Below, piece by piece: positions 45,454 through 59,502 of a stretch of 64,000 nucleotides of DNA; position 1 is the first letter of the stretch, and the number at the start of each line of letters is the position of its first letter. Made by a program: the position numbers and the translations under genes. Source of the stretch: Patescibacteria group bacterium (GTDB taxonomy: Bacteria > Patescibacteriota > Dojkabacteria > J137); NCBI GenBank assembly GCA_016861265.1, contig BOLA01000001.1, positions 523,569 through 587,568 of the forward strand, given 5' to 3'. The notes beneath the pieces are model-generated. The model did not search any database. It was not told where the DNA came from and was given only the letters and a program-made list of their open reading frames with translations.

Positions 45454-45534
45454 AACTAGAATTATTATAAGTAATTTATTTTACTAAACTAATTGAAATG
45501 GCGGGACACACAGGTCTGGAACCAATGAATACTT

Positions 45535-45614
45535 TGGTGAAGGGACTCGAACCCTCACAGATTTGCATCTAATTGTTTGGAAAACAATCGTGTCTACCAT
45601 TGCACCACACCTGG
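45535..45614 (-). tRNA. tRNA-like gene, anticodon loop UU-UCC-AA (Gly-type), with a long variable hairpin and an imperfect acceptor stem
   Basis: Reverse complement shows a D-arm GTGC/AATGGTAGA/(A)CAC, an anticodon stem ATTGT/ACAAT with loop TTTCCAA, a variable hairpin AGAT-GCAA-ATCT and a T-arm GAGGG-TTCGAGT-CCCTT. Only 4 of 7 acceptor pairs form (CCAGGTG versus CACCAAA), so it may be a damaged or atypical tRNA. Confidence 0.4.
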
Positions 45615-45689
45615 AATTCATCCACCAAAATATTCAATTTAATTATAACAAATGAGACATTTGAGACACCTAAAAAAGGAGTCTCAAAA

Positions 45690-46703
45690 TTATTCTAAAA
45701 TCTTTGTAAAAACCCTCCTCATGTCAATACAGCAGTAAATGTAAACTTCTCTAAAGTAATCGCTGGATAAAGATTTGTTATAGAAATTTTTCTTAATCCT
45801 ATCTAGCGTACGCGGCGTAAACAAGGGATCATCAATCCATAATATCAACATTCCTTTTCCGTACTTATTCAATGCATTTTTATACGAGTTTTTGTTTAAC
45901 TTTCTCTCGACTCCTTCAACTGTAGAATATGAAATAGCTTTATCTGGTTCGAAGATTACTCCCGGAGGATGTTTATAAATTACATCGCCTCCAAATGCCC
46001 AAGAATAGGCCTCTTTTGCTTCTTCTTCATTTCTAAATACATCCGTGATTTCTACCCAAACTTGTTCTCCGGAATTAGCTTTTAATATTGCATCTGGTGG
46101 ATCTGGAGTTTCTATAACTGAATAACTAGATGTAGGCTTACTAATAAATTTCGCAAAATCCTTGGCTACAGCCAACTCGTGTGCCCGCTTAAGTTCTTGT
46201 ATATTTCTAAAATTTTGCATTAAGAGATTTGAGACTGGAATATCGGCATGGTTTCCCACTGGCAATATTACAAAATATGCATATTTATAATTCAGATCAA
46301 TTTGATATGCCCTCAATTTTCTCTTATCTTCAAAGACTGCGTCACTTCCAGTATTGTTTGATTTCTTTGCTTCAATCACTAAAAAGTTGGAATCGGAAGC
46401 TGAGCCTCGTTTATGGATTATTATGTCAGGATAGACGGTAACAGCTTCAGTATTATTACTTTCAATTTCAGCAATGGTTGTGATTAATTTCTTAGGTAAT
46501 TCTCCATCTCGATTGTATTCACAATCTACTGAGAATCCGTCAAGCTTAGGAAAGAAATTCTTTAGTTCTTGTTCAAGATATACAGCTAGCCTATGAGTTA
46601 GGCTCCTCTCGTTAATATTAACTTGTAGGATATGACGATCTTCTGTAATAAGCCTACTTAACGATTTCTCAATTAATTGTTTAACCTTTTCATTTTCTTC
46701 CAT
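45690..46703 (-). CDS. PD-(D/E)xK nuclease-fold protein (restriction-endonuclease-like)
   Basis: VYPDIIIHKRG...FLVIEAKK gives a PD...(E)xK core motif. 337 aa. Confidence 0.5.
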   Translation of the reverse strand: MEENEKVKQLIEKSLSRLITEDRHILQVNINERSLTHRLAVYLEQELKNFFPKLDGFSVDCEYNRDGELPKKLITTIAEIESNNTEAVTVYPDIIIHKRGSASDSNFLVIEAKKSNNTGSDAVFEDKRKLRAYQIDLNYKYAYFVILPVGNHADIPVSNLLMQNFRNIQELKRAHELAVAKDFAKFISKPTSSYSVIETPDPPDAILKANSGEQVWVEITDVFRNEEEAKEAYSWAFGGDVIYKHPPGVIFEPDKAISYSTVEGVERKLNKNSYKNALNKYGKGMLILWIDDPLFTPRTLDRIKKNFYNKSLSSDYFREVYIYCCIDMRRVFTKILE

Positions 46704-46710
46704 GAATTCA

Positions 46711-48336
46711 TTATATCAACATCTCAACTCCATCATTATCAACAAACTTCCACTTCTTATTACTACTTGAAGTCTTTTCATGCTTCTTAAAGAATTTTTT
46801 ATTATCCTCAGCCATGTAAACCGTAAAGTAAGTTTTACCATTCGAATCTTTTAATTCTCGCCCAATTAATTCACCATTTCGGTTCATTTTACTAACTGTA
46901 GCAGAATGTAATCCAAATTCACTTTTAAATTGCCAACTCGCAATCCATAGATCATGATTCTTAATAATCTCAGCTGGTACTATCCCTTCTTTTACATTTC
47001 TTCTACAATCAGCACATTGAATACCATCTAGATTCCACCAAGACTCACTACCTTTAAGACCTCTAGAACAAAGATTACATGAATAACCAGATTCTCGGTC
47101 CTCTAAGAAGAAACCTTCGGGTTCTTTTTCCAATCTTTTCTTTCTTAGTCTCTCTGTTATTTCCATCTCTGCTAGTAGTCTTGCTATTTCTGCTGAGTTT
47201 GAATACTTTAAAAGTTTCTCGGGATCTATTTCTGTTTTAGGTTCTTCTTTCTTTTTACCAAACAATTCATGTAAATCTTCATCACGTTCATATCCTTTTA
47301 ATTGTCCCGAAATATACCCTAATCTATAGGAAGTACCATCTGGTGTAAGTCTCCAGTTTGTTATCTCTAAAGCTTCTTTAATTATTTTTTCTAATTCTTT
47401 AGTACTATCTTTACTGCTTCTATTTGTATCATTATCTTGAACTGAGAATGGAACTATAACAAATCGAGTAATTTCAGGTTTATCAAAGGCTAAATTTTTA
47501 AACTTATATTTAACTAGCTTTTTATTAAGTACCTTTTCAAGTTCAACGATGGTTAATCTTTTTATATTAAAGGTTCTTTCATAAACAGGATCTTGATATT
47601 TTTGAAGCTCATATTCGTATATTTCATTCATAAACTTTAGCTGTTCAAATCCATCTAGTAACTCATCGCCTTTTTCTTTTGACAAACAAAATTCTGATCT
47701 GTATTTTTCTAATAATGATTTCTCCTTTTGTTCTTTCTGTAATCTTTCCTCATCATTCTTTTTATAATCATCAATTTCAATATTCTTATAATCACATGAA
47801 GTACATTTTGTGGTAGTAGTAACTATGTCATCTTTTCGTTTAAACTTATATTTAACCTCTGATTTACATTTTGGGCAAAGATCTGGTTCATGGATCCATT
47901 CCTTTCCATCTTCCCAAACATGTTTACGCTTCTTACATGAGGGGCATTCGAAGAAAAATAACATTTTCTGTGGTTTAGCATCATGCCAATCAAGTGATTT
48001 CATTGTTACATCCATTAACTTATTGCAAGTTGAACACTTAATTGCTGGAGCTGGAGTATTATCATATTTATATTGCTTGAGTTCATCTTCTTCTATCCAT
48101 TCTTTAATTTCAGTTTCTCGATTCTTATATCTGTATAATTTGGTATTTAGAAGCTGTTCATGAAGAACTTGGTTCCAGCCATTATTGATTTCTTCTATTG
48201 GAGTATTTTGGATGTCATGAGATTTGAGTGAATCTTTAGCAACTTTGCTTATAAATTCAATTTTATCAAGACATAGTTCAATAGTTAGTAAATCATACCG
48301 ATCTTCATAGTATTGTTGATCTTGAAGATATTGCAT
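46711..48336 (-). CDS. hypothetical protein with multiple CxxC zinc-ribbon pairs
   Basis: CSTCNK, CPSCKK, CPKCKS, CTSCDY, CNLCSR and CADCRR pairs. 541 aa. 7 nt upstream of the PD-(D/E)xK gene. Confidence 0.5.
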   Translation of the reverse strand: MQYLQDQQYYEDRYDLLTIELCLDKIEFISKVAKDSLKSHDIQNTPIEEINNGWNQVLHEQLLNTKLYRYKNRETEIKEWIEEDELKQYKYDNTPAPAIKCSTCNKLMDVTMKSLDWHDAKPQKMLFFFECPSCKKRKHVWEDGKEWIHEPDLCPKCKSEVKYKFKRKDDIVTTTTKCTSCDYKNIEIDDYKKNDEERLQKEQKEKSLLEKYRSEFCLSKEKGDELLDGFEQLKFMNEIYEYELQKYQDPVYERTFNIKRLTIVELEKVLNKKLVKYKFKNLAFDKPEITRFVIVPFSVQDNDTNRSSKDSTKELEKIIKEALEITNWRLTPDGTSYRLGYISGQLKGYERDEDLHELFGKKKEEPKTEIDPEKLLKYSNSAEIARLLAEMEITERLRKKRLEKEPEGFFLEDRESGYSCNLCSRGLKGSESWWNLDGIQCADCRRNVKEGIVPAEIIKNHDLWIASWQFKSEFGLHSATVSKMNRNGELIGRELKDSNGKTYFTVYMAEDNKKFFKKHEKTSSSNKKWKFVDNDGVEMLI

Positions 48337-48383
48337 AAATAATTATATATTTTTTTGCTTTAAAGTTATAATTTCTGCATATT

Positions 48384-49835
48384 TTGATTGTTAATAATAT
48401 GCTCACAAAGTCTGATTTCCTAATTTATCTTGATGCCCCAAGGCATTTGTGGGCAGTTAAGCACGGCAAGGTTGTAGAAAATGAACTAAATGCGTATGTT
48501 AAACATTTATTTGAGCAAGGATATGAAGTAGAAAAATTAGCAGAGGAATACATTCAAGAATGTTTAATTCCCCAATATAAGGCTCATCAATCTGATGTAT
48601 TAATCCAACCTACATATATTGACGGTGATTTCGAAGCTAGAACTGATGTACTTATAAAAAATCCTTTCACAGAAAAATGGGATATGTTCGAAATCAAAAG
48701 TTCTACGAGTGTAAAGAAAACTCATCAATATGATGCTACATTTCAGGCTCTTATATTTCAGAAAAAGTACGACTTGGGACAAATACACATACTCCATTTA
48801 AATGGAAAATATATACGAGAAGGCGAAATAAACTTATCTAATTTATTTGTTGAAACTAATATTACTGAAAAGGTTGGATCACTTAAAGATGAGGTTAACC
48901 TATTACGTTGTAAAGCACTTGAAGATATAAAGGAAGATAGCTGTACTCATGTACTTGGATGTATCAAACCAAAAGAATGTATATGTTCAGATATATGCCA
49001 TCTAAATCTTCCTGAATATTCAATTTATGATATTAATTATTTAACAGGGAATGAAAAGAAAATAAGGGAGCTAGAAGAAAGAAGTATTATTAATATATTT
49101 GATATCCCTGAGGATTTTAAACTTTCAGAGAAACAACGATTTCAAGTCTCTGTTGCACAAAGTAAACAAGTGGTTATAGATATTGATTCAATTAAATTAG
49201 ACCTTAAAGGAATAGAATATCCACTTCACTTTATAGATTATGAATCTTTTAATCCAGCAGTACCTATATACAATGGATATAAACCATATGACCAAATGTC
49301 TTTTCAGTGGTCTCTACATGTTCAAAAAGAACCTAATGGTGATTTAGAGCATTATGAATTTATCGAACTAGAGAAATGTGATCCAATTCAAAATTTCCTT
49401 TCTGAGTTATCTAAAAAAATTAATCGAAGTGGTTCAATTATTGTTTGGAATAAAACATTTGAAGGTACGCAAAATAAACGTATGGGACAGATCCATCCAG
49501 AATTTGCCTCTTTTTGTGAAGACATGAATACCAGAATGTATGATCTAATGGATATCTTTAAGAATCAATGGTATGCAGATCCTAAATTCAAAGGAAGTTT
49601 TTCTATTAAAAAAGTACTTCCAGTGCTAGTACCAGAGTTAAGTTATGAGGGAATGAGTATCGCAGAGGGGGCTACAGCCATGGCAAGTTGGAATGAAATA
49701 ATATATGGAGAAAGTATTGAAGATGATAAAAAATTAGATACTAAAAACAATTTGCTTAAGTACTGTGAACTTGATACTTTGGCAATGATAAAGATATTCG
49801 CAGTCATTCAGAAAGTTCTAAATTATAACTATTAA
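48384..49835 (+). CDS. DUF2779-like protein with an N-terminal Cas4/RecB-like PD-(D/E)xK nuclease motif
   Basis: N-terminal LTKSDFLIYLDAPRHLW then D-VLIKNP...FEIKSS (D...ExK). The C-terminal half carries the HFIDYESF segment. Confidence 0.45.
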   Translation: MIVNNMLTKSDFLIYLDAPRHLWAVKHGKVVENELNAYVKHLFEQGYEVEKLAEEYIQECLIPQYKAHQSDVLIQPTYIDGDFEARTDVLIKNPFTEKWDMFEIKSSTSVKKTHQYDATFQALIFQKKYDLGQIHILHLNGKYIREGEINLSNLFVETNITEKVGSLKDEVNLLRCKALEDIKEDSCTHVLGCIKPKECICSDICHLNLPEYSIYDINYLTGNEKKIRELEERSIINIFDIPEDFKLSEKQRFQVSVAQSKQVVIDIDSIKLDLKGIEYPLHFIDYESFNPAVPIYNGYKPYDQMSFQWSLHVQKEPNGDLEHYEFIELEKCDPIQNFLSELSKKINRSGSIIVWNKTFEGTQNKRMGQIHPEFASFCEDMNTRMYDLMDIFKNQWYADPKFKGSFSIKKVLPVLVPELSYEGMSIAEGATAMASWNEIIYGESIEDDKKLDTKNNLLKYCELDTLAMIKIFAVIQKVLNYNY

Positions 49836-52800
49836 TCAATCTTCTATCCACTCAGAAGAAGTTCGTTTACCTGAGGAGATGTGTCCAACTACCCTACCAT
49901 TACTTAGTTGAAATATAAGTCCTACCTGTCGAACTCTTAACCCAAGAAGTGATCTAACCTCAAGACATATAGCAAGCTTCTGATCATCTGGAGATAGGAT
50001 AGAACTTTCAATTTTAGAATTTCGATTACTATATTCTTTGGGTAATTGATTCAGTATCGTAGACCATTGTTCAGATTTATCCGTACTACGATTAATTCCG
50101 TCAAGAAGCTGGGTAAGTGGTTCAAGAAAGATTTGCTCTCCAGATGTAAGATATTCAAAATAAATTTGTAAACCTGTTAACTCACAAATTTTCAAATCTT
50201 CAGGATGGCATTTTCTCCCACTCCATGCACATGGTTTAGCTTCAAGAGGTGAACAATAATTCCCTGTTACAGACTTTATAGCTTCTTTCTCCATTAACCT
50301 TGCTCCAGAAAGGCTGCTTGAGACAAAGAATTTCTTAAGGGCCTTTTCCCCTGAAAATACAGATTTCTCAAGTTCATCAGTCAATACTTTTTTGCCAGTA
50401 ATAGAACATTGTTCTAAAATCCCAGGTAGAACTATTTTATTAGTAATTTCACATTTTTCTCCTTCAGAAGGTAGTAATGGTTGTTTTGTTACTGCACAAA
50501 AAATGAATTCGTCTTTATGCCCAGTTTTTCCAGAGAAAATAGAACGTAATTGTTGATCTTTCCTATAAGTTTTTTTTGAAACTTCACTAATAGCCAACTC
50601 GTCTTTTAGAACTTCATCTCCCGTAAATTCACATTTACCAAAAAAACTTTGTTCGGCTTTCTTTCCACTTAATTGAGAAACTTTTAGCAGTGATCTCATA
50701 ACAGGTTTACCTGTAATTTGAGAATAATCAATTTCATCTATTAAGACACGTTTACCAGTAAGTGAACATATTATAGTATTATCAATTGTGGCTTTTCTGG
50801 AACTTATTTCTGATTGAATTAAAAGGTTACGCAATACTTTATTTCCAGTTATTGCATCTGACTCGAGGCAGTCTACAGGTACCTCTTTATTGGTTTTGGT
50901 ACATTTTTCTATTACTGGAACATTTAGAAATTTATTCTGAGATGGAGATAGAGTTATTTCACTAGTATAATTTTCACCACCATCAATATGGTAGTTTACA
51001 AGTATTTTTAATTCTCTGTGAACTGTCCCCTCAACACCTACCATATTGACATTAAGTCTAGGTGTAAAGTCATCATTTAGTCTCTTTCTTTTAATAAGAT
51101 CATCACCTGCACTTTGAATTTCTATTGATTTTCGTTCATTGTAAAATCTACAAAATTCAGATATCCCTTCATCGGCATTTATATTATTAATAATCTTATC
51201 TATTATAATTCCAATCGAACTAGGATCTTCTATAGTATTTGGTATTTTATCTAAGCCGTTTTTAATTTTATTATTATGTTCTATAGAAGAACAATCACTT
51301 TCGATAAGTCGCTCATAGCTATCGCAAGCTACTGTTGAGCGAACCCTAATGAGTGTTTTTCCATCAAAACATCTATATACATCTTTGATATTATAATTTT
51401 TAAAATCACCATTAAAACTATTGACCCATTTTCTTGATATCTCGTCAATCTTTTGTAATATACCATCATCTACATCTGAAACGTTGTGTAATGGGCTACT
51501 AGTTATCTTACCTACAAGACTCTCAAATGAACTTGTTCCTGGAGCATACAAATCACTGTCGGGAGATTTCAAATCTTCATTAAATTGTATTATTTTTATA
51601 TCGCCATCAAGATTACAGCTATATGAATCTATATCAATTTGTGAGATTTTACCCCCCAAGGATTCTAGTCCTAGTAGAGAAACCTCTTTCGCACTCAAAG
51701 ACTTAATTTGTTTAGGTAAATTAGGACATAATGGTCCCATATCTGAACTATCCATTGCACCGAGAAGTGTATTAATAACTTTTTGTTGAGCTTCTAATTC
51801 AACTTTTGCATTAGATATACTTTCCTCGGTCATTCGAGTTGCTTCTTCTATATCTTTTCCTGCTAGCGATGCGATAACAAGTTTACGGATCTGTTCTTCA
51901 AATCCATCTGAGACTTCGTCTTCATTTTCACTTAAACCAGAACCTTCTAATAACGATTCGATATCTCCAATGGCGTGAGCAGCCATCTGTAATTTTTCCA
52001 TTAATCGACCTACAATTTTTTCTTCAAAGGTATCTTTCAAGACTATATTAAAAATGCTTACATTCTTGTGCTCAGAGGCTAATCTTTGAATACGACCTAT
52101 TCGTTGCTCAACAATCATAGGATTCCACGGCAGATCATAATTAATTAGTACATTTGCCGATTGTAAATTTACCCCTTCTGAACCTGCTTCTGTAGATATA
52201 ATCACGTTAATTTCTGGATTGGACTTCTTAAATCTGGCTATCGTATCTTGGTTTCTTTGTCCTGAATCGCCGTTTATGAGTCCACATTTTATACCTAGTT
52301 TTTCTAGAAAGATTTGAATTGAGGTCTGTGTTTCTCTACGTCCTGTAAATATGACCAATCTCCATGCATCAGGTTTCTCGGAACGCAATCTCTCTACCAA
52401 GATATTTAACCCATTTAACTTTGCCGTCACCCCAACCCGTTTAACTACTTCTTGAACATCTATGGCTAGTGATTCAGGAATTGTCTGCCTTCTTGCCATG
52501 TTATTAAGTTGTGCAGATAATGCTTCGGGGCTACTTATAAGAGCTTGGAGAATAGATATTTGAGCTAATGGGTTGAGTTTTTGAATTGGTTCTGCAATTG
52601 TATTAATTAATTCTAGCTCCTCTTTAGATGGAATAACTCGATGGAGTTGCACTATCCTTTCTGGAAAATCAAGTTTTGCATCGATTCTCCTTACACGAGA
52701 CATATACCCATAAACAATTGAACGAAATTCCTCAGCTTTTTCTGGTTTTAAGTGACGAGCATCTGAACGATTATCAGCAATAAAATTTCTTGCGAATAAT

Positions 52801-53528
52801 CCTTCACTTCCAAGAGGATTTTCATGACCTCTAGCCACTGTTAACAAGTCAATGAGTGAGTATAAATCCCAAAGTCTATTGTGAATTGGAGTTGCGGTAA
52901 GCATCAATACATATTTAAATACTCTGTCCGATAAGGCTTGATGAAAACGTTTGGCAACTTGAGGGGTTTTCTCTACACCATATAGATTACGCAATTTGTG
53001 AGCTTCATCTAAAATCAACATTTCAAAACCTAATGTTGATAAGATGTCGAAATATATACGTGCGGATTGATATGTTGTAATTACTGCAACGGAAGAGTCA
53101 TCTGGAAAATTTAATTCTGTTAATTTCTTACCAATTGCTTCAATAGCTGTTATCTTAAATTTTAAATCTAGTTCTTCACGCCACTGAGGCATTAATATTT
53201 TGGGACAAACAATCAGTATCTTTGACACCCGATTACGGGATATAAGTTCGCTTATTATTAATCCGGCACTTATAGTTTTTCCTAACCCAACGTCATCAGC
53301 TAACAATGTAACAGGTAATCTCCTACAAAATGTGATTAAATTGGATACTTGATGTTGATATGGTTCAACATGATCTTTCCATTTATATTCTGACTTTATA
53401 TCACTTCTATCTTTTATTATAATTGGATCAATTAAATCCCATTCGAGTGCAGATTTATACAGATCATATTCTTCTTTATCTTTGGATTTTGAAAGTGCTT
53501 TAGTTTGAATGATAGAAGATGTATCCAT
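49836..53528 (-). CDS. SNF2-family (SWI2/SNF2) helicase/translocase with a roughly 650-aa C-terminal extension carrying tandem C-x2-TG-x2-VL repeats
   Basis: SNF2_N LADDVGLGKTISAG, DEAH box LILDEAHKLRN, helicase-C motifs (ISTEAGSEGVNLQ, QRIGRIQR). C-terminal repeats such as CSLTGKRVLIDEI, CEFTGDEVLKDEL, CEITNKIVLPGIL, CSITGKKVLTDEL. 1230 aa. Confidence 0.85.
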   Translation of the reverse strand: MDTSSIIQTKALSKSKDKEEYDLYKSALEWDLIDPIIIKDRSDIKSEYKWKDHVEPYQHQVSNLITFCRRLPVTLLADDVGLGKTISAGLIISELISRNRVSKILIVCPKILMPQWREELDLKFKITAIEAIGKKLTELNFPDDSSVAVITTYQSARIYFDILSTLGFEMLILDEAHKLRNLYGVEKTPQVAKRFHQALSDRVFKYVLMLTATPIHNRLWDLYSLIDLLTVARGHENPLGSEGLFARNFIADNRSDARHLKPEKAEEFRSIVYGYMSRVRRIDAKLDFPERIVQLHRVIPSKEELELINTIAEPIQKLNPLAQISILQALISSPEALSAQLNNMARRQTIPESLAIDVQEVVKRVGVTAKLNGLNILVERLRSEKPDAWRLVIFTGRRETQTSIQIFLEKLGIKCGLINGDSGQRNQDTIARFKKSNPEINVIISTEAGSEGVNLQSANVLINYDLPWNPMIVEQRIGRIQRLASEHKNVSIFNIVLKDTFEEKIVGRLMEKLQMAAHAIGDIESLLEGSGLSENEDEVSDGFEEQIRKLVIASLAGKDIEEATRMTEESISNAKVELEAQQKVINTLLGAMDSSDMGPLCPNLPKQIKSLSAKEVSLLGLESLGGKISQIDIDSYSCNLDGDIKIIQFNEDLKSPDSDLYAPGTSSFESLVGKITSSPLHNVSDVDDGILQKIDEISRKWVNSFNGDFKNYNIKDVYRCFDGKTLIRVRSTVACDSYERLIESDCSSIEHNNKIKNGLDKIPNTIEDPSSIGIIIDKIINNINADEGISEFCRFYNERKSIEIQSAGDDLIKRKRLNDDFTPRLNVNMVGVEGTVHRELKILVNYHIDGGENYTSEITLSPSQNKFLNVPVIEKCTKTNKEVPVDCLESDAITGNKVLRNLLIQSEISSRKATIDNTIICSLTGKRVLIDEIDYSQITGKPVMRSLLKVSQLSGKKAEQSFFGKCEFTGDEVLKDELAISEVSKKTYRKDQQLRSIFSGKTGHKDEFIFCAVTKQPLLPSEGEKCEITNKIVLPGILEQCSITGKKVLTDELEKSVFSGEKALKKFFVSSSLSGARLMEKEAIKSVTGNYCSPLEAKPCAWSGRKCHPEDLKICELTGLQIYFEYLTSGEQIFLEPLTQLLDGINRSTDKSEQWSTILNQLPKEYSNRNSKIESSILSPDDQKLAICLEVRSLLGLRVRQVGLIFQLSNGRVVGHISSGKRTSSEWIED

Positions 53529-53566
53529 ACTTTATTTTGATTTTATGGTTATCATTGGTAATTAAG

Positions 53567-54559
53567 TTAATGTGTACGCTGCATAATTAATTCTTCTTTC
53601 ACTTTTTGATGAGCTGTTGTTAGCATTTCTTTGACACCATTTTTAAACTTCGTATTTTCAAGTATCTGAGGTACCTTTACATTTCTTACAGTATCAGGAA
53701 GAGACAAATTTGCAAAGGCATTGGTTGGTCTATACTTGAAGTCTTTAAGATTAAAAACAGTCATTATCTTTCCATATTGAGCCTCAAAATCATTTATTAA
53801 TTCTTGAAGTTTTGATCTGAATAAATCTGGATGTAATTTTATGTATCTTTTATTTGTAAATCCAACCACTGAAGCTATATTAATCATATCATCCGCGGAT
53901 AATGTCGTGCCTTCTAGGATTCTTAGAGCTAATGCTTCGTCAATCTCCTCTTCTAATATAAATGGAGCTCTTTTTATTATATCGACTCTTTTTCTAGCAA
54001 TACTTGCGATAATTAAGGACCTTATTGCATATGAACGAAAAGATGCTTTTGAATGGTATTGTAGAAGTCGAATAATTTCATCCACAGCTTTATCATAATC
54101 TCCAACAAGTAAGTGTCTTTCTAATCCATAAAAATATAAAAATACATAGCTTAAATTAGTTTCTTGAGTGACATCTCTCAACCAGTTTAGATATTGATAG
54201 CGAGTCTCAGGATAAAATTTACTATAAGAAGGGTAATACATAGGATCTTTATATAAATCATTATTTGGTTTGATTGGAAGCTTTGTCCAAATCAAACTTG
54301 GTTCAGCGTAAAATCCATTTTCATTTTCCTTAAGTTCGGGACCGTTCTCAGTAAGAGTTATCGTTATGCTCATAGAGCCAGCAATTTCTATCTTAGATGT
54401 ATCTTCATCAGTTATCCATAATAAAGAAAGGGTGGGTTCAGGTATTCTTAATGAATCTCTAATATTATTATTTGTAGATCTACTGACACTAATAATCTTA
54501 TTATCAATATTTGGATTATTATTAGTTTTCTTAAATAGAGATCCAAGTAAATTGAACAT
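53567..54559 (-). CDS. hypothetical protein co-transcribed with the SNF2 helicase (possibly TerB-N-like, unverified)
   Basis: 330-aa ORF ending 38 nt upstream of the SNF2 start. Contains a conserved-looking YQYLNWLRDV...YFYGLERHLL segment. Confidence 0.45.
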   Translation of the reverse strand: MFNLLGSLFKKTNNNPNIDNKIISVSRSTNNNIRDSLRIPEPTLSLLWITDEDTSKIEIAGSMSITITLTENGPELKENENGFYAEPSLIWTKLPIKPNNDLYKDPMYYPSYSKFYPETRYQYLNWLRDVTQETNLSYVFLYFYGLERHLLVGDYDKAVDEIIRLLQYHSKASFRSYAIRSLIIASIARKRVDIIKRAPFILEEEIDEALALRILEGTTLSADDMINIASVVGFTNKRYIKLHPDLFRSKLQELINDFEAQYGKIMTVFNLKDFKYRPTNAFANLSLPDTVRNVKVPQILENTKFKNGVKEMLTTAHQKVKEELIMQRTH

Positions 54560-54677
54560 AATATTCTTAAATGATTAACTTTTTAATTTAATAATATAGA
54601 GATTTTACTACTTTTCTCTTGCATTTTATATTGAGATATACTTAGCCTTCCTCACAAATTTGTATTATAATCATGGC

Positions 54678-54848
54678 ATAAGAGACCTAACCTCATATGG
54701 ATTTTTCTATGTGAGCATGGTTTCTAAACAAAATCGTACGACACGTAAAAACGGCTTCTCAGCCGGTATCGTGTCGTACGTCTACAAGGGGGAACTCTTG
54801 TAGGGCAGCCCGAAAGGGTGTAGCCACTGGTCTGAGAAGTCGTTTTTT
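54678..54848 (+). ncRNA. candidate structured RNA or regulatory element (GC-rich, nested hairpins, pseudoknot-capable)
   Basis: -10 TATAAT at 54666-54671; perfect 11-bp inverted repeat CGTACGACACG (54735-54745) / CGTGTCGTACG (54770-54780) enclosing the hairpin CGGCTTCTCAGCCGG; GNRA-capped hairpin GGCAGCCC-GAAA-GGGUGUAGCC (54804-54825); segment ACTGGTCTGAGAAG (54826-54840) complementary to CTTCTCAGCCGGT; then a T6 run. Confidence 0.35.
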
Positions 54849-54965
54849 GCTATTAAGCCTCAAACACTTTCCAAATCAGCACGTAAATTAATTTTTAATA
54901 CTAATTGCCTATGACAATAAGCTTATAAGTACAGCTAGCTTACTTTTATTTTTTATTATTTTTAT

Positions 54966-55478
54966 ATGGCTCAAGATCAAAATAGTACTATAGGAACAGC
55001 AAAAAAATCCTTTATTAAAGGAATTAGTGGAACTGTAGGAATAATAGGAGGATTGTTGCTTTGTTGCTTAGTTGTTGCTGTAATGGTTGCTATGTCACAA
55101 GGTAGTAAGACACCAACTAATGACTCGTCCAGCAATAGTTCAAACACTAGCTCTAATACACCCAAACATGATCCAGTAAATTTAACTTTTACAGGAAAGG
55201 GTAATAAAGATACAGATAGTTTTACTTTGTATGATGGAACTGCAAAAATGACAGTTACTACATCAGGTGGATCTGTGGGTACATACTCATCAGTAACTTT
55301 GCAAAAAGAAGGCGAGAATATGTTCTTAAATGGACTAACTGGCGAAGATTTAAATATCTCAACTAAGGGTTCAGAAGATGGTCATGGAGATACAACAGTT
55401 AGAGGAATAAAAGAAGGTAAATATTACATTTCTGTTATTTCAGGTGTTGACTGGAGTGTGACTATAACTCAAGAGTAA
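54966..55478 (+). CDS. membrane-anchored Ser/Thr-rich secreted protein, unknown function
   Basis: N-terminal transmembrane helix GIIGGLLLCCLVVAVMVAM, S/N-rich linker, beta-rich C-terminal domain. Confidence 0.5.
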   Translation: MAQDQNSTIGTAKKSFIKGISGTVGIIGGLLLCCLVVAVMVAMSQGSKTPTNDSSSNSSNTSSNTPKHDPVNLTFTGKGNKDTDSFTLYDGTAKMTVTTSGGSVGTYSSVTLQKEGENMFLNGLTGEDLNISTKGSEDGHGDTTVRGIKEGKYYISVISGVDWSVTITQE

Positions 55479-55498
55479 TAATCAAACCACTAAACCTA

Positions 55499-55522
55499 AG
55501 AGACCTCGTGATGAGGTCTCTT
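55499..55522 (+). terminator. rho-independent terminator-like hairpin (agagacctc gtgatg gaggtctct)
   Basis: 9-bp stem followed by a T-rich stretch, immediately after the 54966-55478 CDS. Confidence 0.55.
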
Positions 55523-55533
55523 TCTATATCAAG

Positions 55534-56223
55534 ATGTATAATCTAACTATGACTATTGAAGAACTTAATAAACATATAGAATCACTAACTCTTCCGCATA
55601 AGAAACTTTTAGAAATTTTTCAAAATGTATATAAACCATTTGAAGAGCTATCTGAAATTTTAGGACATCAGGTATATGTAGATCCTACAACATTTGAAAC
55701 ATTAGTTTCTATTTTTCCTACTGAAAAAAGTCTAAAAGTTTCAATCGAAGAGATAACGGCAAATCCAGATATTTACTTTATCTACACAAACCATGTAAAA
55801 CTTCCTCGATATAGAGACTCACACATTATTGTAGATAAACAAACTGCATTTTTAATAAATAAGCTTGATATGACATTTAGACGAAAATTTTACTTAGGAA
55901 TAAAAAAAGTTCCATTCAATAAAAATACTTCAGTACTTAGAATTGAAGACTACACCTTTGAAATAGATAAAGACTCTGACACATATAACCTATGTCTTAT
56001 GCTATTTGGTTCTAAACAATATATTAATCGAATATGGAAATGGAATGATATCTTAGATAAAGTAATGGGACATAGCGATGAAAGAAAAGATGATGTGAAT
56101 GCTTTTAAACTTAAAGTCTATAGATTAAATCTAAGACTATATAAAACTGGGTATAAGAATATAATTTTGTATAAAAATAAAACAGTGCGTGTAAATCCTG
56201 AGTATATCTTCCTCTTCAAATAG
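55534..56223 (+). CDS. hypothetical protein
   Basis: 229-aa ORF. Confidence 0.45.
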   Translation: MYNLTMTIEELNKHIESLTLPHKKLLEIFQNVYKPFEELSEILGHQVYVDPTTFETLVSIFPTEKSLKVSIEEITANPDIYFIYTNHVKLPRYRDSHIIVDKQTAFLINKLDMTFRRKFYLGIKKVPFNKNTSVLRIEDYTFEIDKDSDTYNLCLMLFGSKQYINRIWKWNDILDKVMGHSDERKDDVNAFKLKVYRLNLRLYKTGYKNIILYKNKTVRVNPEYIFLFK

Positions 56224-56287
56224 ACACCGAACCTGACCGAAACCCACTTCATGATGTAATTAGATAATAATTTTTATCTAATTATAT

Positions 56288-57616
56288 ATGGAAGAAAAAC
56301 TTCAAACTGTCTATGTAAATATAGACGATCTTACCAAAGCTGACTACAACCCAAGGAAATGGGATGAAAAAGCACTTTCAGATTTAAAAGAAAGCATAAA
56401 GCGATTCGGCATAGTAGATCCAGCTATAGTAAATTCAGCTGAAAGTAGAAAAAACATAGTGATTGGTGGACATATGCGTATTGAAGCAGCTAAAGCTTTA
56501 GGTCTTAAAGAAATGCCGGTAATTTATCTGGATATTTCAGATATCGAAAAAGAAAAAGAGCTTAATTTAAGACTTAATAAAAATCAAGGTGAGTTTGATT
56601 TCACTCTACTTGCAAATTTCGCAGAAGATCTATTACAAGATGTGGGTTTTAACTCTGAAGAATTAGACTCAATCTTTGATTGGGATGATGACAATCCAGA
56701 AGTTTTTGATTTAAAGAAAGAACTTGAAAAATTAAATATTAAAGAGATTGAAATACAAAAAGGCGATGTTTGGCAACTAGGTGAAAGTAAATTAATGTGT
56801 GGTGATTCTACAATCGAAGAAAATGTTTTGAAACTTATGAATGGTGAAAAAGCAGACATGTGTTTTACTGATCCTCCGTATATTCTGGATTATCTTCATG
56901 GTAAAAAGAAAAATGGCAAACCAGTTGAGGGCTTTGGAGCTAAGAGAAATAGAAAGTATTTAGAAACAGATGAACTTCCTGATAACTTTACAGAATTATG
57001 GATGGGGAACGTATCTAAAATTTCAAAAGATAATTTTCACATCATTGTTTATGAAAATTGGAAAAATATACGAACTATTTGGAATGAAATTGAAAAATAT
57101 TGGAAAGTTAAAAACATGTTAGTTTGGCATCTTCCAAATAGAAATCAGGGATTTGCAGCTAAATATAAGTTCTTTTCAAAGCATGACATTGCAATGGTAG
57201 GTTCAACTGAAAGATCGGAAACTTTTAATTTAAATCCTGAAGATGAGCTTTTACAAAATGAATATGAAACTGCACTTTATGCAATAGCTGGCAAACCTCA
57301 TTGGGAAGGTTATGAAAAAGGTAAAAAAATCCAGCCAACAGATTTTATTGAATATAAAGCTTCAGATGAAAAAAGTTCTGGGCAAGGAATTATATTTGGA
57401 ACAAAACCACTAGAGATTTTAATCCCATATATCAAAGTTTTAACAAAGAGAGATGATTTGATAATTGAACCATTTGGAGGAAGTGGTTCAACTCTTATTG
57501 CTTCAACAAAGATGAAAAGACGATGCTACTTAATGGAAAAGTCACCAGTCTATGCAGAAGTTATTAAAAACAGATGGGAAAAGTTAACTGGTGAGAAAGG
57601 AGTAAAAATATCATGA
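56288..57616 (+). CDS. ParB-like nuclease domain fused to a DNA N6-adenine/N4-cytosine methyltransferase (beta-class)
   Basis: ParBc GGHMRIEAAKALG; methyltransferase motif IV CFTDPPY before motif I EPFGGSGST (beta permutation). A phage-typical fusion. Confidence 0.8.
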   Translation: MEEKLQTVYVNIDDLTKADYNPRKWDEKALSDLKESIKRFGIVDPAIVNSAESRKNIVIGGHMRIEAAKALGLKEMPVIYLDISDIEKEKELNLRLNKNQGEFDFTLLANFAEDLLQDVGFNSEELDSIFDWDDDNPEVFDLKKELEKLNIKEIEIQKGDVWQLGESKLMCGDSTIEENVLKLMNGEKADMCFTDPPYILDYLHGKKKNGKPVEGFGAKRNRKYLETDELPDNFTELWMGNVSKISKDNFHIIVYENWKNIRTIWNEIEKYWKVKNMLVWHLPNRNQGFAAKYKFFSKHDIAMVGSTERSETFNLNPEDELLQNEYETALYAIAGKPHWEGYEKGKKIQPTDFIEYKASDEKSSGQGIIFGTKPLEILIPYIKVLTKRDDLIIEPFGGSGSTLIASTKMKRRCYLMEKSPVYAEVIKNRWEKLTGEKGVKIS

Positions 57617-58014
57617 AGAATAAAAAGAAAGAATTAGTTGAACAACTAAGAAAAACTCCTGTTATTGAAGTTGCCTGTAAAAAGATTGGAATTGGTAGAG
57701 CGACATTCTACAGATGGAAGAAACGAGATCAGAAGTTTGCTGAGGAAGCGGAATTTGCCTTGAATGAAGGTTCTCAGTTAGTTAATGATATGGCTGAAAG
57801 CCAATTAATAACTTCAATTAAAAATGGAAATATGACAGGAATTATATTTTGGCTTAAAAATCACCATAAGCAATATTCTCCAAAACTTGAGGTCACGACA
57901 AAAAGTGCTGATCTTCCGCTAACTGAAGAACAAAAAGAAACGATTAGAAGATCGTTGAGCATGGCATTTAATTTAAATATTAATAATGATGAAAATGAAG
58001 AAGCTACAAATTGA
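57613..58014 (+). CDS. putative terminase small subunit (N-terminal helix-turn-helix)
   Basis: HTH IGIGRATFYRWKK. Small basic protein immediately upstream of and overlapping the terminase large subunit. Confidence 0.45.
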   Translation: MKNKKKELVEQLRKTPVIEVACKKIGIGRATFYRWKKRDQKFAEEAEFALNEGSQLVNDMAESQLITSIKNGNMTGIIFWLKNHHKQYSPKLEVTTKSADLPLTEEQKETIRRSLSMAFNLNINNDENEEATN

Positions 58015-59458
58015 TCAAGACTACTCATTGCCCATGGAAGTTATTGATGAAATACTAAATGATAAGCAAGTTCGTAAGGAATTAATAAGAGAAAGTCATT
58101 ATTGGTTCTTTCATTTGTATTTCAGTGAATATGTGAAGTATTCAACGGCAGATTTTCAAAAGGAAATGTTCAAGATTACTGAAGATGATAAAGTCAAAAT
58201 GGCAGTGATTATTGCATTTAGAGGCTCGGCTAAATCAACAATTATGACTATGTCCTATCCTCTTTGGGCGATAATTGGAAAACAAAAAAGGAAGTGTGTA
58301 GTAATAATATCTCAAACTCAACAACAGGTCAGAACTCACTTTGCAAATTTAAAGCGTGAATTAGAAAGCAATGAAATTTTAAGAAACGATTTAGGTGCAT
58401 TAGAAGAAGAATCTGATGAATGGGGATCATATTCATTAGTCTTACCTAAATTTAATGCAAGACTTATTGCAGCATCAAGTGAGCAAAGTATCAGAGGAAT
58501 AAGGCATGGTGCAAATAGACCTGATCTAATAATTTGTGATGATGTTGAAGATATAAGTTCAGTGAAGACAAAAGAGGGTCGAGATAAAGCATATAACTGG
58601 CTATCAGGCGAAGTTATTCCCCTTGGTGATCAAAATACAAAAGTAATAATGATAGGAAATCTTCTACATGAAGACTCTTTGTTAATGAGATTAAAGAAGA
58701 AAATTACTGAAGAAAATATGAATGCAATATTCAAGGAGTATCCTATTGTTGATTCTGAAAATAATATTCTTTGGGAAAGTAAATTTAAGAACCTTGAGGA
58801 CATTGAGAATTTTAAAAAGATTATAGGAGATGATAAGGCTTGGCAAAGAGAATATATGTTAAAGATTATTCCGGAAGACGACCAACTAGTGTATAGAGAA
58901 TGGATTCAATATTATGATGAATTACCACAAAATACCAGTAGTTATAAATACACTATAATTGGTATTGATTTGGCAATTTCAACAAGTACATCTGCAGATT
59001 ACACAGCTATGATAACAGCGCATGTTTTTGGTTATCTAGAAAATCTTAAAGTATATATATTACCAAATATATTTAATAAGAGAATTGAATTCCCTGAAAT
59101 AGTCGATACCGTAAAACAAAAAGGTAGAGAAAAGTACTACAGCAGAAGACCAGAGATTTATATTGAAGATGTTGGATATCAAGCATCTGTAATACAAGCA
59201 CTGAAGAATCAGAGCTTAAATGTTAAAGGATTCAAAGTTCATGGTCAAGATAAACGAGCAAGGTTAAATTCCGTAACTCCATATATAAGATTTGGACAGG
59301 TCCTTTTTCCTAAGCAAGGAGCAGAAGAATTAATTCAACAGCTAGTCTATTTTGGTGTAGAGAAGCATGATGACCTAGTTGATGCATTTTCGATGCTAAT
59401 GATAAGAGTTTCAGAAAAAGATAGACCTGGTGTGCAAATTTTACCCTATTATTTCTAA
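57986..59458 (+). CDS. phage terminase large subunit (ATPase plus RNase-H-like nuclease)
   Basis: Walker A AFRGSAKST, Walker B PDLIICDDVED, C-terminal nuclease acidic residues (GIDLA...D...D). Confidence 0.6.
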   Translation: MMKMKKLQIDQDYSLPMEVIDEILNDKQVRKELIRESHYWFFHLYFSEYVKYSTADFQKEMFKITEDDKVKMAVIIAFRGSAKSTIMTMSYPLWAIIGKQKRKCVVIISQTQQQVRTHFANLKRELESNEILRNDLGALEEESDEWGSYSLVLPKFNARLIAASSEQSIRGIRHGANRPDLIICDDVEDISSVKTKEGRDKAYNWLSGEVIPLGDQNTKVIMIGNLLHEDSLLMRLKKKITEENMNAIFKEYPIVDSENNILWESKFKNLEDIENFKKIIGDDKAWQREYMLKIIPEDDQLVYREWIQYYDELPQNTSSYKYTIIGIDLAISTSTSADYTAMITAHVFGYLENLKVYILPNIFNKRIEFPEIVDTVKQKGREKYYSRRPEIYIEDVGYQASVIQALKNQSLNVKGFKVHGQDKRARLNSVTPYIRFGQVLFPKQGAEELIQQLVYFGVEKHDDLVDAFSMLMIRVSEKDRPGVQILPYYF

Positions 59459-59502
59459 TAAATAGCTGGACTTCATTTGATTGTAGCGGTACTGTCCTTG
59501 GT

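What the first reader, a model, noticed from the sequence alone, without database searches (positions are those of the whole stretch)
50230..50950. Tandem C-x2-TG-x2-V-L-x2-E-L repeat array in the C-terminal extension of the SNF2 protein
After the helicase core (SNF2_N plus Helicase_C, about the first 560 aa), the protein continues for about 650 aa. The last about 250 aa hold at least eight degenerate copies of a 20-25-aa unit: CSLTGKRVLIDEIDYSQITGKPV, CEFTGDEVLKDELAISEV, CEITNKIVLPGILEQ, CSITGKKVLTDELEKSVFSGEKAL, CELTGLQIYFEYLTSGEQ. The regularly spaced Cys/Ser-x2-Thr-Gly pattern suggests a repeated small-ligand- or zinc-binding module that I cannot assign to a named domain. Such C-terminal modules typically specify the target (DNA modification or phage protein) in defence translocases.
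Basis: seen in the sequence. Interest (0 to 1): 0.6.

Follow-up and report, generated by a model that had tools for sequence, protein, structure and literature searches.

The report
Zinc-less hairpin-repeat rod on SNF2 ATPase
The repeat is real but is a 15-residue unit present 17 times; it is predicted to form a rod of small zinc-finger-like hairpins that have lost their zinc ligands, sits in the tail of an uncharacterised bacterial SNF2 motor protein related to phage-defence helicases, and matches no described domain family.

Summary
The repeat exists, but its period is 15 aa, not 20-25. There are 17 units, aa 876-1130 of a 1230-aa SNF2 protein (window 50139-50903, minus strand). Lag-15 autocorrelation gives z = 11.9; the best shuffle reached 4.0. 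The consensus is [C/S]-x-[IVL]-[S/T]-G-[K/R]-x-[VA]-L-P-x-E-L-x-x.

AlphaFold2 (pLDDT 87-89) gives every unit the same shape: a 6-residue knuckle loop, a strand, a 3-10 turn and a strand. Pfam, NCBIfam, PDB sequences and Foldseek against PDB give no significant match. The weak fold hits are tandem LIM and other zinc fingers.

Divergent relatives carry true C-x2-C-x4-C-x2-H units with the same 15-aa spacing. Their ligand positions (1, 4, 9, 12) are among the six best-conserved positions of the zinc-less unit. I therefore read the array as a zinc-finger-derived, mostly zinc-free hairpin rod.

The array is the second most conserved region of the protein and is exactly 254 aa in 74 of 76 family members. 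Sister clades expand it to about 73 units.

Context points to mobile elements and defence, without proof. A Cas4-like/DEDD nuclease gene is adjacent in 16 of 83 loci. Serine recombinases are frequent neighbours. Long-array members sit in DISARM operons or other defence islands.

Function is inferred, not shown.

The parts
49836..53528 (-). Whole gene: a 1230-aa SNF2-family ATPase with a 700-aa unannotated C-terminal extension.
   Evidence: ORF. Pfam SNF2-rel_dom (4e-27) and Helicase_C (6e-20). The family is uniform at about 1230-1236 aa.
51939..53378 (-). SNF2 ATPase core (aa 51-530) with motifs I-VI intact: GLGKT, DEAH, TATP, QRIGRIQR.
   Evidence: Sequence and Pfam. Best solved relatives are the Sulfolobus SNF2/Rad54 core 1z63 (3e-28) and E. 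coli RapA (3e-24). Best defence models are DrmD, BrxHI and HmaA, all matching the core only.
50904..51938 (-). Helical linker plus two alpha/beta domains with long hairpins (aa 531-875). Invariant motifs are DSYERL, EFCRFY and DDFTP. Function unknown.
   Evidence: AF2 model, pLDDT mostly 83-95. Invariant columns. No family match. Weak Foldseek match of the C-terminal model to RapA 8t0l_F (E = 5e-3); which region matched is not reported.
50139..50903 (-). The repeat array: 17 tandem 15-aa units (aa 876-1130). Each unit is a knuckle loop [C/S]xx[S/T]G[K/R], a strand, a 3-10 turn (P-x-E) and a strand.
   Evidence: Periodicity. Register and family consensus. DSSP per unit. Conservation.
49839..50138 (-). 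C-terminal cap domain (aa 1131-1230): short helices plus a 4-5-stranded antiparallel sheet. It is retained after arrays of any length.
   Evidence: AF2 model. It is conserved in the long variants P0134, P0131 and P0150.
48384..49835 (+). DUF2779 protein (Cas4-like PD-(D/E)XK nuclease plus DEDD 3'-5' exonuclease). It is convergent with the SNF2 gene and their stop codons abut. It is the only recurrent neighbour of the family.
   Evidence: Pfam DUF2779, 8e-38. Adjacent in 16 of 83 loci from several phyla. Kept in the 89%-identical relative. Domain interpretation from PMC13621843 and PMC3985635.
53567..54559 (-). TerB_N-domain protein 38 bp upstream on the same strand. It is lineage-specific, so it is only a possible partner.
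   Evidence: Pfam TerB_N, 1.6e-19, and PADLOC SngA, 3e-17. Present in the 89% relative but in none of the 80 genome loci.

Best explanation
The array is a rod-like stack of 17 miniature beta-hairpin modules. The modules descend from 15-residue C-x2-C-x4-C-x2-H zinc knuckles that have lost their metal ligands. In the zinc-less unit, [C/S]1, [S/T]4, L9 and E12 occupy the former ligand positions.

The protein has four parts in order: an intact SNF2 (DrmD/RapA-branch) ATPase, two middle domains, the rod, and a small C-terminal cap domain.

Shown:
- the 15-aa periodicity;
- the same predicted secondary-structure pattern in every unit;
- unit-by-unit conservation and a fixed array length within the 1230-aa class;
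- expansion to about 73 units in sister clades;
- the absence of any matching described family.

Inferred, function: the rod is a rigid arm of defined length and a docking surface. It holds the cap domain, and probably a partner, at a set distance from the DNA-translocating motor. The likeliest partner is the adjacent Cas4-like/DEDD nuclease.

Inferred, role: the gene acts in surveillance or restriction of foreign DNA and is carried on serine-recombinase mobile islands.
For: Repeat and fold:
- Lag-15 z = 11.9.
- Identical DSSP per unit (loop of 6, strand of 3, 3-10 turn of 3, strand of 3) in two independent AF2 runs with pLDDT 89 and 87.
- pTM is only 0.55-0.57 despite the high pLDDT, as expected for an elongated repeat.

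Zinc-finger ancestry:
- The best, still non-significant, Foldseek PDB hits are tandem LIM domains and CHY/PHD zinc fingers.
- BFVD hits with probability 1.0 include a phage protein named as LIM-domain-containing.
- JGI labels P0134 with the zinc-ribbon protein S27E.
- Relatives P0223, P0233 and P0247 carry C-x2-C-x4-C-x2-H units spaced 15 aa apart. The zinc-less unit is best conserved at positions 1, 4, 8, 9, 12 and 13.

Functional constraint:
- The array is the second most conserved region (mean top-residue frequency 0.69, against 0.81 for the core and 0.59 for the flanking domains).
- It is exactly 254 aa in 74 of 76 members.
- Nine position-1 Cys are conserved in 76 of 76 members.

Extensibility:
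- 671 representatives match the C-terminal profile, and many are 1350-2100 aa with up to 12 matched stretches.
- P0134 has 73 units with nested periods of 45 and 181 aa.
- Detected unit count tracks protein length, r = 0.94.

Context:
- DUF2779 is adjacent in 16 of 83 loci.
- Serine recombinases lie nearby in 11 loci.
- The window island runs from a tRNA-Gly gene to a serine recombinase.
- P0136 directly follows DrmA/DrmB/DrmC.
- P0134 and P0144 lie in DISARM, GmrSD, methyltransferase and Mrr islands.
Against: - No coordinates were available, so rod geometry, units per turn and the burial of positions 1, 4, 9 and 12 are inferred from secondary structure and conservation only.
- No fold match is significant.
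- The CCCH units of the relatives are not in an unbroken register with their zinc-less units. Homology of the two unit types is therefore likely but not proven.
- DUF2779 is absent from about 80% of the loci.
- No DrmA, DrmB or DrmC lies within 8 kb in the 80 short-class loci.
- Two long-variant loci have housekeeping neighbours.
- The family was not found in the phage, plasmid or IMG/VR collections.
- No experiment links any member to defence.
- The strict invariance of the Cys residues would also fit metal or redox chemistry.
Confidence: 0.45

Rival explanations
1. The units are working metal-binding (zinc or iron-sulfur) or small-ligand-binding modules. The ligands would be shared between neighbouring units.
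For: - Nine position-1 Cys and H1108 are conserved in 75-76 of 76 members and are never exchanged for Ser.
- C1092, C1100, H1108 and C1115 could form one site at the end of the array.
- The family consensus has C876, C887, C891 and H901 at the start of the array.
- Relatives have full CCCH units.
Against: - There is at most one Cys per unit, and half of the units have Ser instead.
- Positions 4, 9 and 12 are S/T, L and E.
- The window protein itself has D891 and N901 in the putative first site.
- The end-site Cys equivalent to C1100 is Ser in P0134.
- AF2 folds the array confidently without metal.
Confidence: 0.12
2. The array is a nucleic-acid-binding track. The [S/T]-G-[K/R] loops, repeated every 15 aa, follow the phosphate backbone of DNA or RNA beside the SNF2 motor.
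For: - K or R is at position 6 in 63% of units, and R or K is common at position 7.
- The array is attached to a DNA translocase.
- Zinc-ribbon and LIM-like modules often contact nucleic acids (general knowledge).
Against: - The net charge of the array is only +4 (38 K/R against 34 D/E).
- Glu at position 12 is conserved next to the basic loop, which suggests an internal salt-bridge ladder rather than a free basic surface (inference).
- No nucleic-acid-binding family matches.
Confidence: 0.18
3. The array is an oligomerisation shaft like the adenovirus fibre, whose 15-residue repeats form a trimeric triple beta-spiral.
For: - The period is the same, 15 residues (fibre shaft repeat: general knowledge).
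- Several adenovirus fibre models appear among the BFVD hits (E = 1e-4 to 1e-3).
Against: - Those hits have probability 0.14-0.57 and TM-scores around 0.1.
- The monomer is predicted with pLDDT around 90, which is unusual for a chain that needs a trimer to fold.
- The conserved positions differ from the fibre motif.
Confidence: 0.05
4. The protein is not a defence factor. It is a RapA-like housekeeping remodeller for transcription or repair, and the rod contacts a cellular machine such as RNA polymerase.
For: - RapA is the top fold hit for the post-helicase region (E = 5e-3, probability 0.97) and a close solved relative of the core.
- Conservation is high and length is uniform, unlike typical fast-evolving defence proteins.
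- Some loci have housekeeping neighbours.
- One source names a member RapA.
Against: - The distribution is patchy: 125 relatives confirmed in a scan of one genome per each of 185,579 species, spread over unrelated phyla at 40-50% identity.
- Neighbourhoods are variable, with recombinases, PIN and nuclease genes.
- About 10 loci carry split copies.
- Long-array members have DISARM contexts.
- The RapA NCBIfam model scores 121 bits against a cut-off of 576.
- Only about 50 aa precede the ATPase core, so there is no room for a RapA-type N-terminal domain.
Confidence: 0.2

Closest known systems
DrmD, the SNF2 helicase of class 1 DISARM
   Same: It gives the best PADLOC and NCBIfam matches (1e-53 and 2e-57). 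One DrmD model also aligns into the linker of the long variant P0136, up to aa 652. P0136 lies directly after DrmA, DrmB and DrmC, the position expected for DrmD.
   Different: Scores are far below the equivalog cut-offs (195 against 610 and 171 against 950). The DrmD models do not cover the C-terminal 600 aa or the array. There is no DrmA, DrmB or DrmC near the window gene or in the 80 short-class loci.
RapA/HepA, the RNA-polymerase-recycling SNF2 ATPase of E. coli
   Same: It is a close solved relative of the core (about 3e-24). It is also the only PDB fold hit of note for the region after the helicase (8t0l_F, E = 5e-3, 281 columns).
   Different: The window protein has no RapA-type N-terminal domain. 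RapA has no hairpin array. The NCBIfam RapA model scores 121 bits against a cut-off of 576.
Tandem LIM domains and other strings of zinc knuckles (LMO2, Lhx3, Isl1, PINCH, CHY finger)
   Same: Both are elongated chains of short beta-hairpins with knuckle turns. These are the best, though weak, structural neighbours of the array (E = 0.08-0.4, TM 0.3-0.37 relative to the target). Relatives carry real CCCH units with the same period.
   Different: The hits are not significant. The units here lack the metal ligands, are 15 aa long rather than about 25-30 aa per finger, and number 17-73 in a row.
Adenovirus fibre shaft (triple beta-spiral) and spruce-budworm antifreeze protein CfAFP
   Same: Both are built on 15-residue beta-rich repeats (general knowledge). 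The fibre gives weak Foldseek hits and CfAFP a weak Pfam hit (E = 0.97).
   Different: The probabilities are low, and the motifs and strand patterns differ. The fibre needs a trimer, and CfAFP is a one-coil-per-repeat beta-helix rather than a hairpin with a 3-10 turn.
Shango (SngA TerB-domain protein, SngB ATPase, SngC helicase)
   Same: The upstream gene matches SngA/TerB_N (3e-17) and lies next to a helicase.
   Different: There is no SngB. No SngC model appears among the 25 best of the 50 PADLOC families listed for the SNF2 protein. The TerB_N neighbour is missing from all 80 other loci.

Membership tests
SNF2 (SWI2/SNF2) ATPases | SNF2-related N-lobe plus Helicase_C lobe, with motifs I-VI intact. 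| tested here: met
   Pfam SNF2-rel_dom scores 95 bits (cut-off 24.9) and Helicase_C 72 bits (cut-off 23.5). GLGKT, DEAH and QRIGRIQR are visible in the sequence.
DISARM DrmD | Full-length match to the DrmD equivalog models above their cut-offs. | tested here: not met
   NF038317 scores 195 bits against a cut-off of 610. NF038318 scores 171 against 950. Only the core region aligns.
DISARM DrmD | Encoded in an operon with DrmA, DrmB (DUF1998/MZB) and DrmC (PLD). | tested here: not met
   None is present in the window or within 8 kb in the 80 short-class loci. The feature is met only for the long variants P0136 and P0134.
RapA | Match to the RapA equivalog above its cut-off, and an N-terminal RNA-polymerase-binding domain. 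| tested here: not met
   PRK04914 scores 121 bits against a cut-off of 576. Only about 50 aa precede motif I.
Zinc ribbon / zinc knuckle / LIM fingers | Four Cys or His ligands per module. | tested here: not met
   Units have 0-1 Cys at position 1, with S/T, L and E at positions 4, 9 and 12. No zinc-finger Pfam model matches. Foldseek E-values are 0.08 or worse.
Zinc ribbon / zinc knuckle / LIM fingers | Metal actually bound, at least at the conserved C1092/C1100/H1108/C1115 set. | not testable with these tools
   The four residues are conserved in 75-76 of 76 members. No coordinates and no metal-aware prediction were available.
Pentapeptide-repeat or beta-helix repeat families (MfpA, CfAFP) | Significant match to the repeat profile. 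| tested here: not met
   MfpA gives E = 0.058 in the PDB sequence search. Pentapeptide_4 gives E = 0.14 in 1 of 18 members. CfAFP gives E = 0.97.
Adenovirus-type triple beta-spiral | A 15-residue repeat that folds as a trimer. | tested here: inconclusive
   The period matches. Foldseek probabilities are 0.14-0.57 with TM around 0.1. The oligomeric state could not be tested.
Shango defence system | SngA (TerB), SngB ATPase and SngC helicase encoded together. | tested here: not met
   Only an SngA-like TerB_N protein is present. No SngB or SngC hit was found among the five proteins scanned.

The most novel reading that the evidence does not exclude
The array is a new protein repeat class: a zinc-free solenoid of zinc-knuckle-derived hairpins. 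It serves as a length-tunable rigid arm (17 to about 73 units) on a DNA translocase. The SNF2 protein would then define a new anti-mobile-element system. This system would act alone or with the Cas4-like/DEDD nuclease, and its long-array forms would replace DrmD in DISARM.
Probability: 0.25. Interest if true: 0.75.

Novelty: new variant of a known kind. Interest (0 to 1): 0.55.

Why it matters
SNF2 ATPases recur in DISARM, BREX, Zorya and Dpd, but how their accessory regions direct the motor is largely unknown. DrmD itself is uncharacterised (PMC9142583).

This family offers a clean case. A conserved motor carries a rod whose length evolution has set to discrete values. The rod is built from a 15-residue module that no domain database describes. 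The module shows how a zinc finger can be turned into a metal-free structural repeat.

The family has at least 671 cluster representatives. It occurs in cultivated Bradyrhizobium, Rhodopseudomonas and Bosea strains, so it is open to experiment.

Tried and rejected
- Named-domain assignment failed for the array and the whole C-terminal 650 aa. I tried Pfam at E up to 10, including 73-unit arrays and all alignment members, NCBIfam, PADLOC, a PDB sequence profile search and Foldseek against PDB on two models.
- TerB_N as a system partner: rejected as a general feature. No TerB_N homologue lies near any of the 80 other loci. It is kept only in the 89%-identical relative.
- DISARM membership of the window gene: rejected.
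- A DNA-level tandem repeat or recent expansion in the window: none.
- Phage, plasmid or viral-contig carriage: no hits.
- An att-type direct repeat of the tRNA-Gly gene bounding the island: none found.
- A 45-aa (three-unit) super-period in the window array: not distinguishable (lag 45 z = 7.3 against lag 30 z = 8.1; unit-to-unit profile similarities). It is clear in P0134.
- Literature searches for the repeat, DrmD C-terminal repeats and TerB-N/SNF2 links found no description of this family.
Full report
**The gene**

The finding lies in a 1230-aa ORF on the minus strand, window 49836-53528. Pfam finds SNF2-rel_dom at aa 72-317 and Helicase_C at aa 381-483, and nothing after about aa 530. ATPase motifs I-VI are intact in the sequence.

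The best defence-library matches are DrmD, BrxHI, HmaA, ZorD and DpdE. All are confined to the helicase core and fall far below the curated cut-offs. For example, NCBIfam DISARM_DrmD scores 195 bits against a cut-off of 610, and RapA scores 121 against 576. The closest solved cores are Sulfolobus SNF2/Rad54 (1z63) and E. coli RapA.

**Checking the observation**

The quoted span 50230-50950 corresponds to aa 860-1100. BLOSUM62 autocorrelation over aa 871-1135 gives a sharp peak at lag 15 (z = 11.9). Harmonics follow at lags 30, 45, 60 and 75 (z = 8.1, 7.3, 6.6 and 6.5). The maximum over 500 shuffles was 4.0.

Written in 15-mers, the array has 17 units. They start at aa 876, 891... 1071, 1086 (a 14-aa unit), 1100 and 1115. 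The consensus is [C/S]-x-[IVL]-[S/T]-G-[K/R]-x-[VA]-L-P-x-E-L-x-x.

That explains the reported '20-25 aa, at least eight copies'. The array is window 50139-50903, and a further 100-aa domain follows it. There is no DNA-level repeat.

**The family**

The C-terminal 650 aa first recovered only 20 proteins through the word-indexed search. A profile search then recovered 225. An exhaustive HMMER search of 1.84 billion representatives gave 671 hits at E ≤ 1e-3.

A scan of one genome per species confirmed 125 relatives. They include Patescibacteria, Nitrospirota, Acidobacteriota, Planctomycetota and Alphaproteobacteria such as cultivated Bradyrhizobium, Rhodopseudomonas and Bosea. Identities to the window protein in the 80 loci kept are 36-49%.

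In the 1230-aa class the array is in perfect register. It is 254 aa long in 74 of 76 members. It is the second most conserved region after the ATPase core: the mean top-residue frequency is 0.69, against 0.81 for the core and 0.59 for the flanking domains.

Whether position 1 is Cys or Ser is fixed for each unit (0.96). Nine of these Cys, plus H1108, are conserved in 75-76 of 76 members. Outside the shared motif the units resemble each other little, and they fall into a C-type and an S-type.

**Structure**

I ran two AlphaFold2 predictions with a 76-sequence alignment: aa 577-1230 (pLDDT 89) and aa 861-1145 (pLDDT 87). Both give every unit the same pattern. It is a six-residue loop ([C/S]xx[S/T]G[K/R]), a three-residue strand, a three-residue 3-10 turn (P-x-E) and a three-residue strand.

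Each knuckle loop therefore joins the last strand of one unit to the first strand of the next. This is the geometry of a zinc-knuckle hairpin. A pTM of only 0.55-0.57 with high pLDDT fits an elongated repeat.

Foldseek against PDB gave no hit at E ≤ 1e-3 for either model. For the array, the top hits with some probability are tandem LIM domains (LMO2, Lhx3, Isl1, PINCH) and CHY/PHD fingers. For the larger model the top hit is RapA (E = 5e-3).

**Origin of the unit**

Divergent long members (P0223, P0233, P0247 and others) carry bona fide C-x2-C-x4-C-x2-H units spaced exactly 15 aa apart at the start of their arrays. Their ligand positions are 1, 4, 9 and 12. These are among the six best-conserved positions of the zinc-less unit, where they hold [C/S], [S/T], L and E.

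JGI's automatic name for P0134 includes the zinc-ribbon protein S27E. I therefore read the array as zinc-knuckle-derived but mostly metal-free.

Two possible residual sites exist. The first is C1092, C1100, H1108 and C1115 at the array end, present in the window protein. The second is C876, C887, C891 and H901 at the array start. That one is present in 69-76 of 76 members but degenerate in the window protein, which has D891 and N901. The end site is not conserved in P0134, so metal binding remains unproven.

**Array length varies between clades**

Many representatives are 1350-2100 aa with up to 12 matched stretches. P0134 (2098 aa) has 73 units with a hierarchy of periods: 15 aa, 45 aa (C-S-S triplets) and a 181-aa super-repeat. 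The number of detected units correlates with protein length (r = 0.94). The cap domain is retained after every array. The architecture is therefore motor, middle domains, rod of n units, then cap.

**Genomic context**

- Across 83 loci the only recurrent neighbour is a DUF2779 protein. It is present in 16 loci from several phyla and lies directly upstream or downstream.
- DUF2779 proteins combine a Cas4-like PD-(D/E)XK nuclease with a DEDD 3'-5' exonuclease (PMC13621843, PMC3985635).
- In the window the DUF2779 gene is convergent with abutting stop codons (48384-49835). This arrangement is kept in an 89%-identical relative, together with the upstream TerB_N gene.
- TerB_N is absent from all the other loci.
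- Large serine recombinases lie within 8 kb in 11 loci. PIN, integrase and scattered defence genes also occur. About ten copies are split.
- The window gene sits in an island that starts at tRNA-Gly (45531-45615). The island also contains a gene with a PD-Lambda-3_A-like N-terminus, a ParB-methyltransferase, a terminase-like gene and a serine recombinase.
- Long-array members give the clearest defence signal. P0136 directly follows DrmA (1096 bits), DrmB and DrmC. P0134 lies inside an island of DISARM, MmeI-type methyltransferase, RES and GmrSD genes. P0144 lies between GmrSD, methyltransferase and UvrD genes and an Mrr nuclease.
- Two other long members have housekeeping neighbours.
- No DrmA, DrmB or DrmC is near the short-class genes.
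- The family was not found in the phage, plasmid or IMG/VR collections.

**Interpretation**

Shown:
- a real 15-aa repeat of 17 units;
- a uniform predicted hairpin module;
- strong, unit-specific conservation;
- a discrete but clade-variable array length;
- no described family that matches.

Inferred: the array is a rigid arm and docking surface that sets the position of the cap domain, or of a partner, relative to a dsDNA-translocating SNF2 motor. The Cas4-like/DEDD nuclease is the best candidate partner. The likely role is surveillance of foreign DNA.

The idea of a 'target-specifying' module is not supported, because the array is conserved rather than diversifying.

The rivals cannot be excluded with the tools available. 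They are shared metal sites, a nucleic-acid track, a trimeric shaft, and a RapA-like housekeeping role.

**Novelty**

This is a new variant of a known kind. It is an SNF2 ATPase of the DrmD/RapA branch carrying an undescribed repeat domain. No paper in the searchable library describes it.

Noticed in passing
window 45531-60831: The SNF2 gene lies in what looks like an integrated mobile island. Its contents are listed below.
- tRNA-Gly(tcc), 45531-45615.
- A 337-aa protein whose N-terminus matches PD-Lambda-3_A (1e-33), 45690-46703.
- A ParB_N plus N6_N4 methyltransferase fusion, 56288-57616.
- A terminase-large-subunit-like gene, 57986-59458.
- A large serine recombinase, 59503-60831.
No att-like direct repeat was found.
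   Followed up: partly
window 46711-48336 (-): A 541-aa protein with several CxxC...CxxC pairs (zinc-ribbon-like). Its only family matches are sub-threshold (MCM_OB, Zn_ribbon_8) and it has no PADLOC match. It lies between the PD-Lambda-3_A-like gene and the DUF2779 gene.
   Followed up: no
window 53567-54559 (-): A TerB_N-domain protein (Pfam 1.6e-19; PADLOC SngA 3e-17) 38 bp upstream of the SNF2 gene on the same strand. The pairing is kept in an 89%-identical relative but is absent from 80 other loci. It is therefore either a lineage-specific addition or a separate system.
   Followed up: partly
window 49835/49836: The DUF2779 gene (+) and the SNF2 gene (-) are convergent with no intergenic base between their stop codons. 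Their transcripts must overlap or terminate inside the other gene. In the other phyla the two genes are co-directional.
   Followed up: partly
window 50826-50858 (aa 891 and 901): The window protein and its closest relative have D891 and N901. Of 76 family members, 73 have Cys at 891 and 69 have His at 901. Together with C876 and C887 these would form a possible CCCH site at the start of the array, so that site appears to be lost in this lineage.
   Followed up: partly
L086 8001-14297 (P0134); L088 9001-14709 (P0136): Sister-clade proteins carry arrays of about 45-73 units. P0134 has a 181-aa (12-unit) super-repeat and C-S-S triplets. P0136 lies directly after DrmA/DrmB/DrmC, where DrmD is expected.
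   Followed up: partly
L001 10001-11650 (P0010); L049 6280-9977: Decayed copies of the family occur. One is a 549-aa C-terminal remnant in a 4.2-Mb contig, next to Recombinase, Resolvase, DUF2924 and ParB-methyltransferase genes. Another is a copy split into 468 and 775 aa in Bradyrhizobium sp. WSM1743. About 10 of the 83 loci are split or truncated other than by a contig end.
   Followed up: partly
P0223 aa 967-996; P0233 aa 968-1115; P0247 aa 984-1013: These are Cys-rich stretches of C-x2-C-x4-C-x2-H units spaced 15 aa apart, at the start of the arrays of divergent members. No Pfam zinc-finger model matches them.
   Followed up: partly
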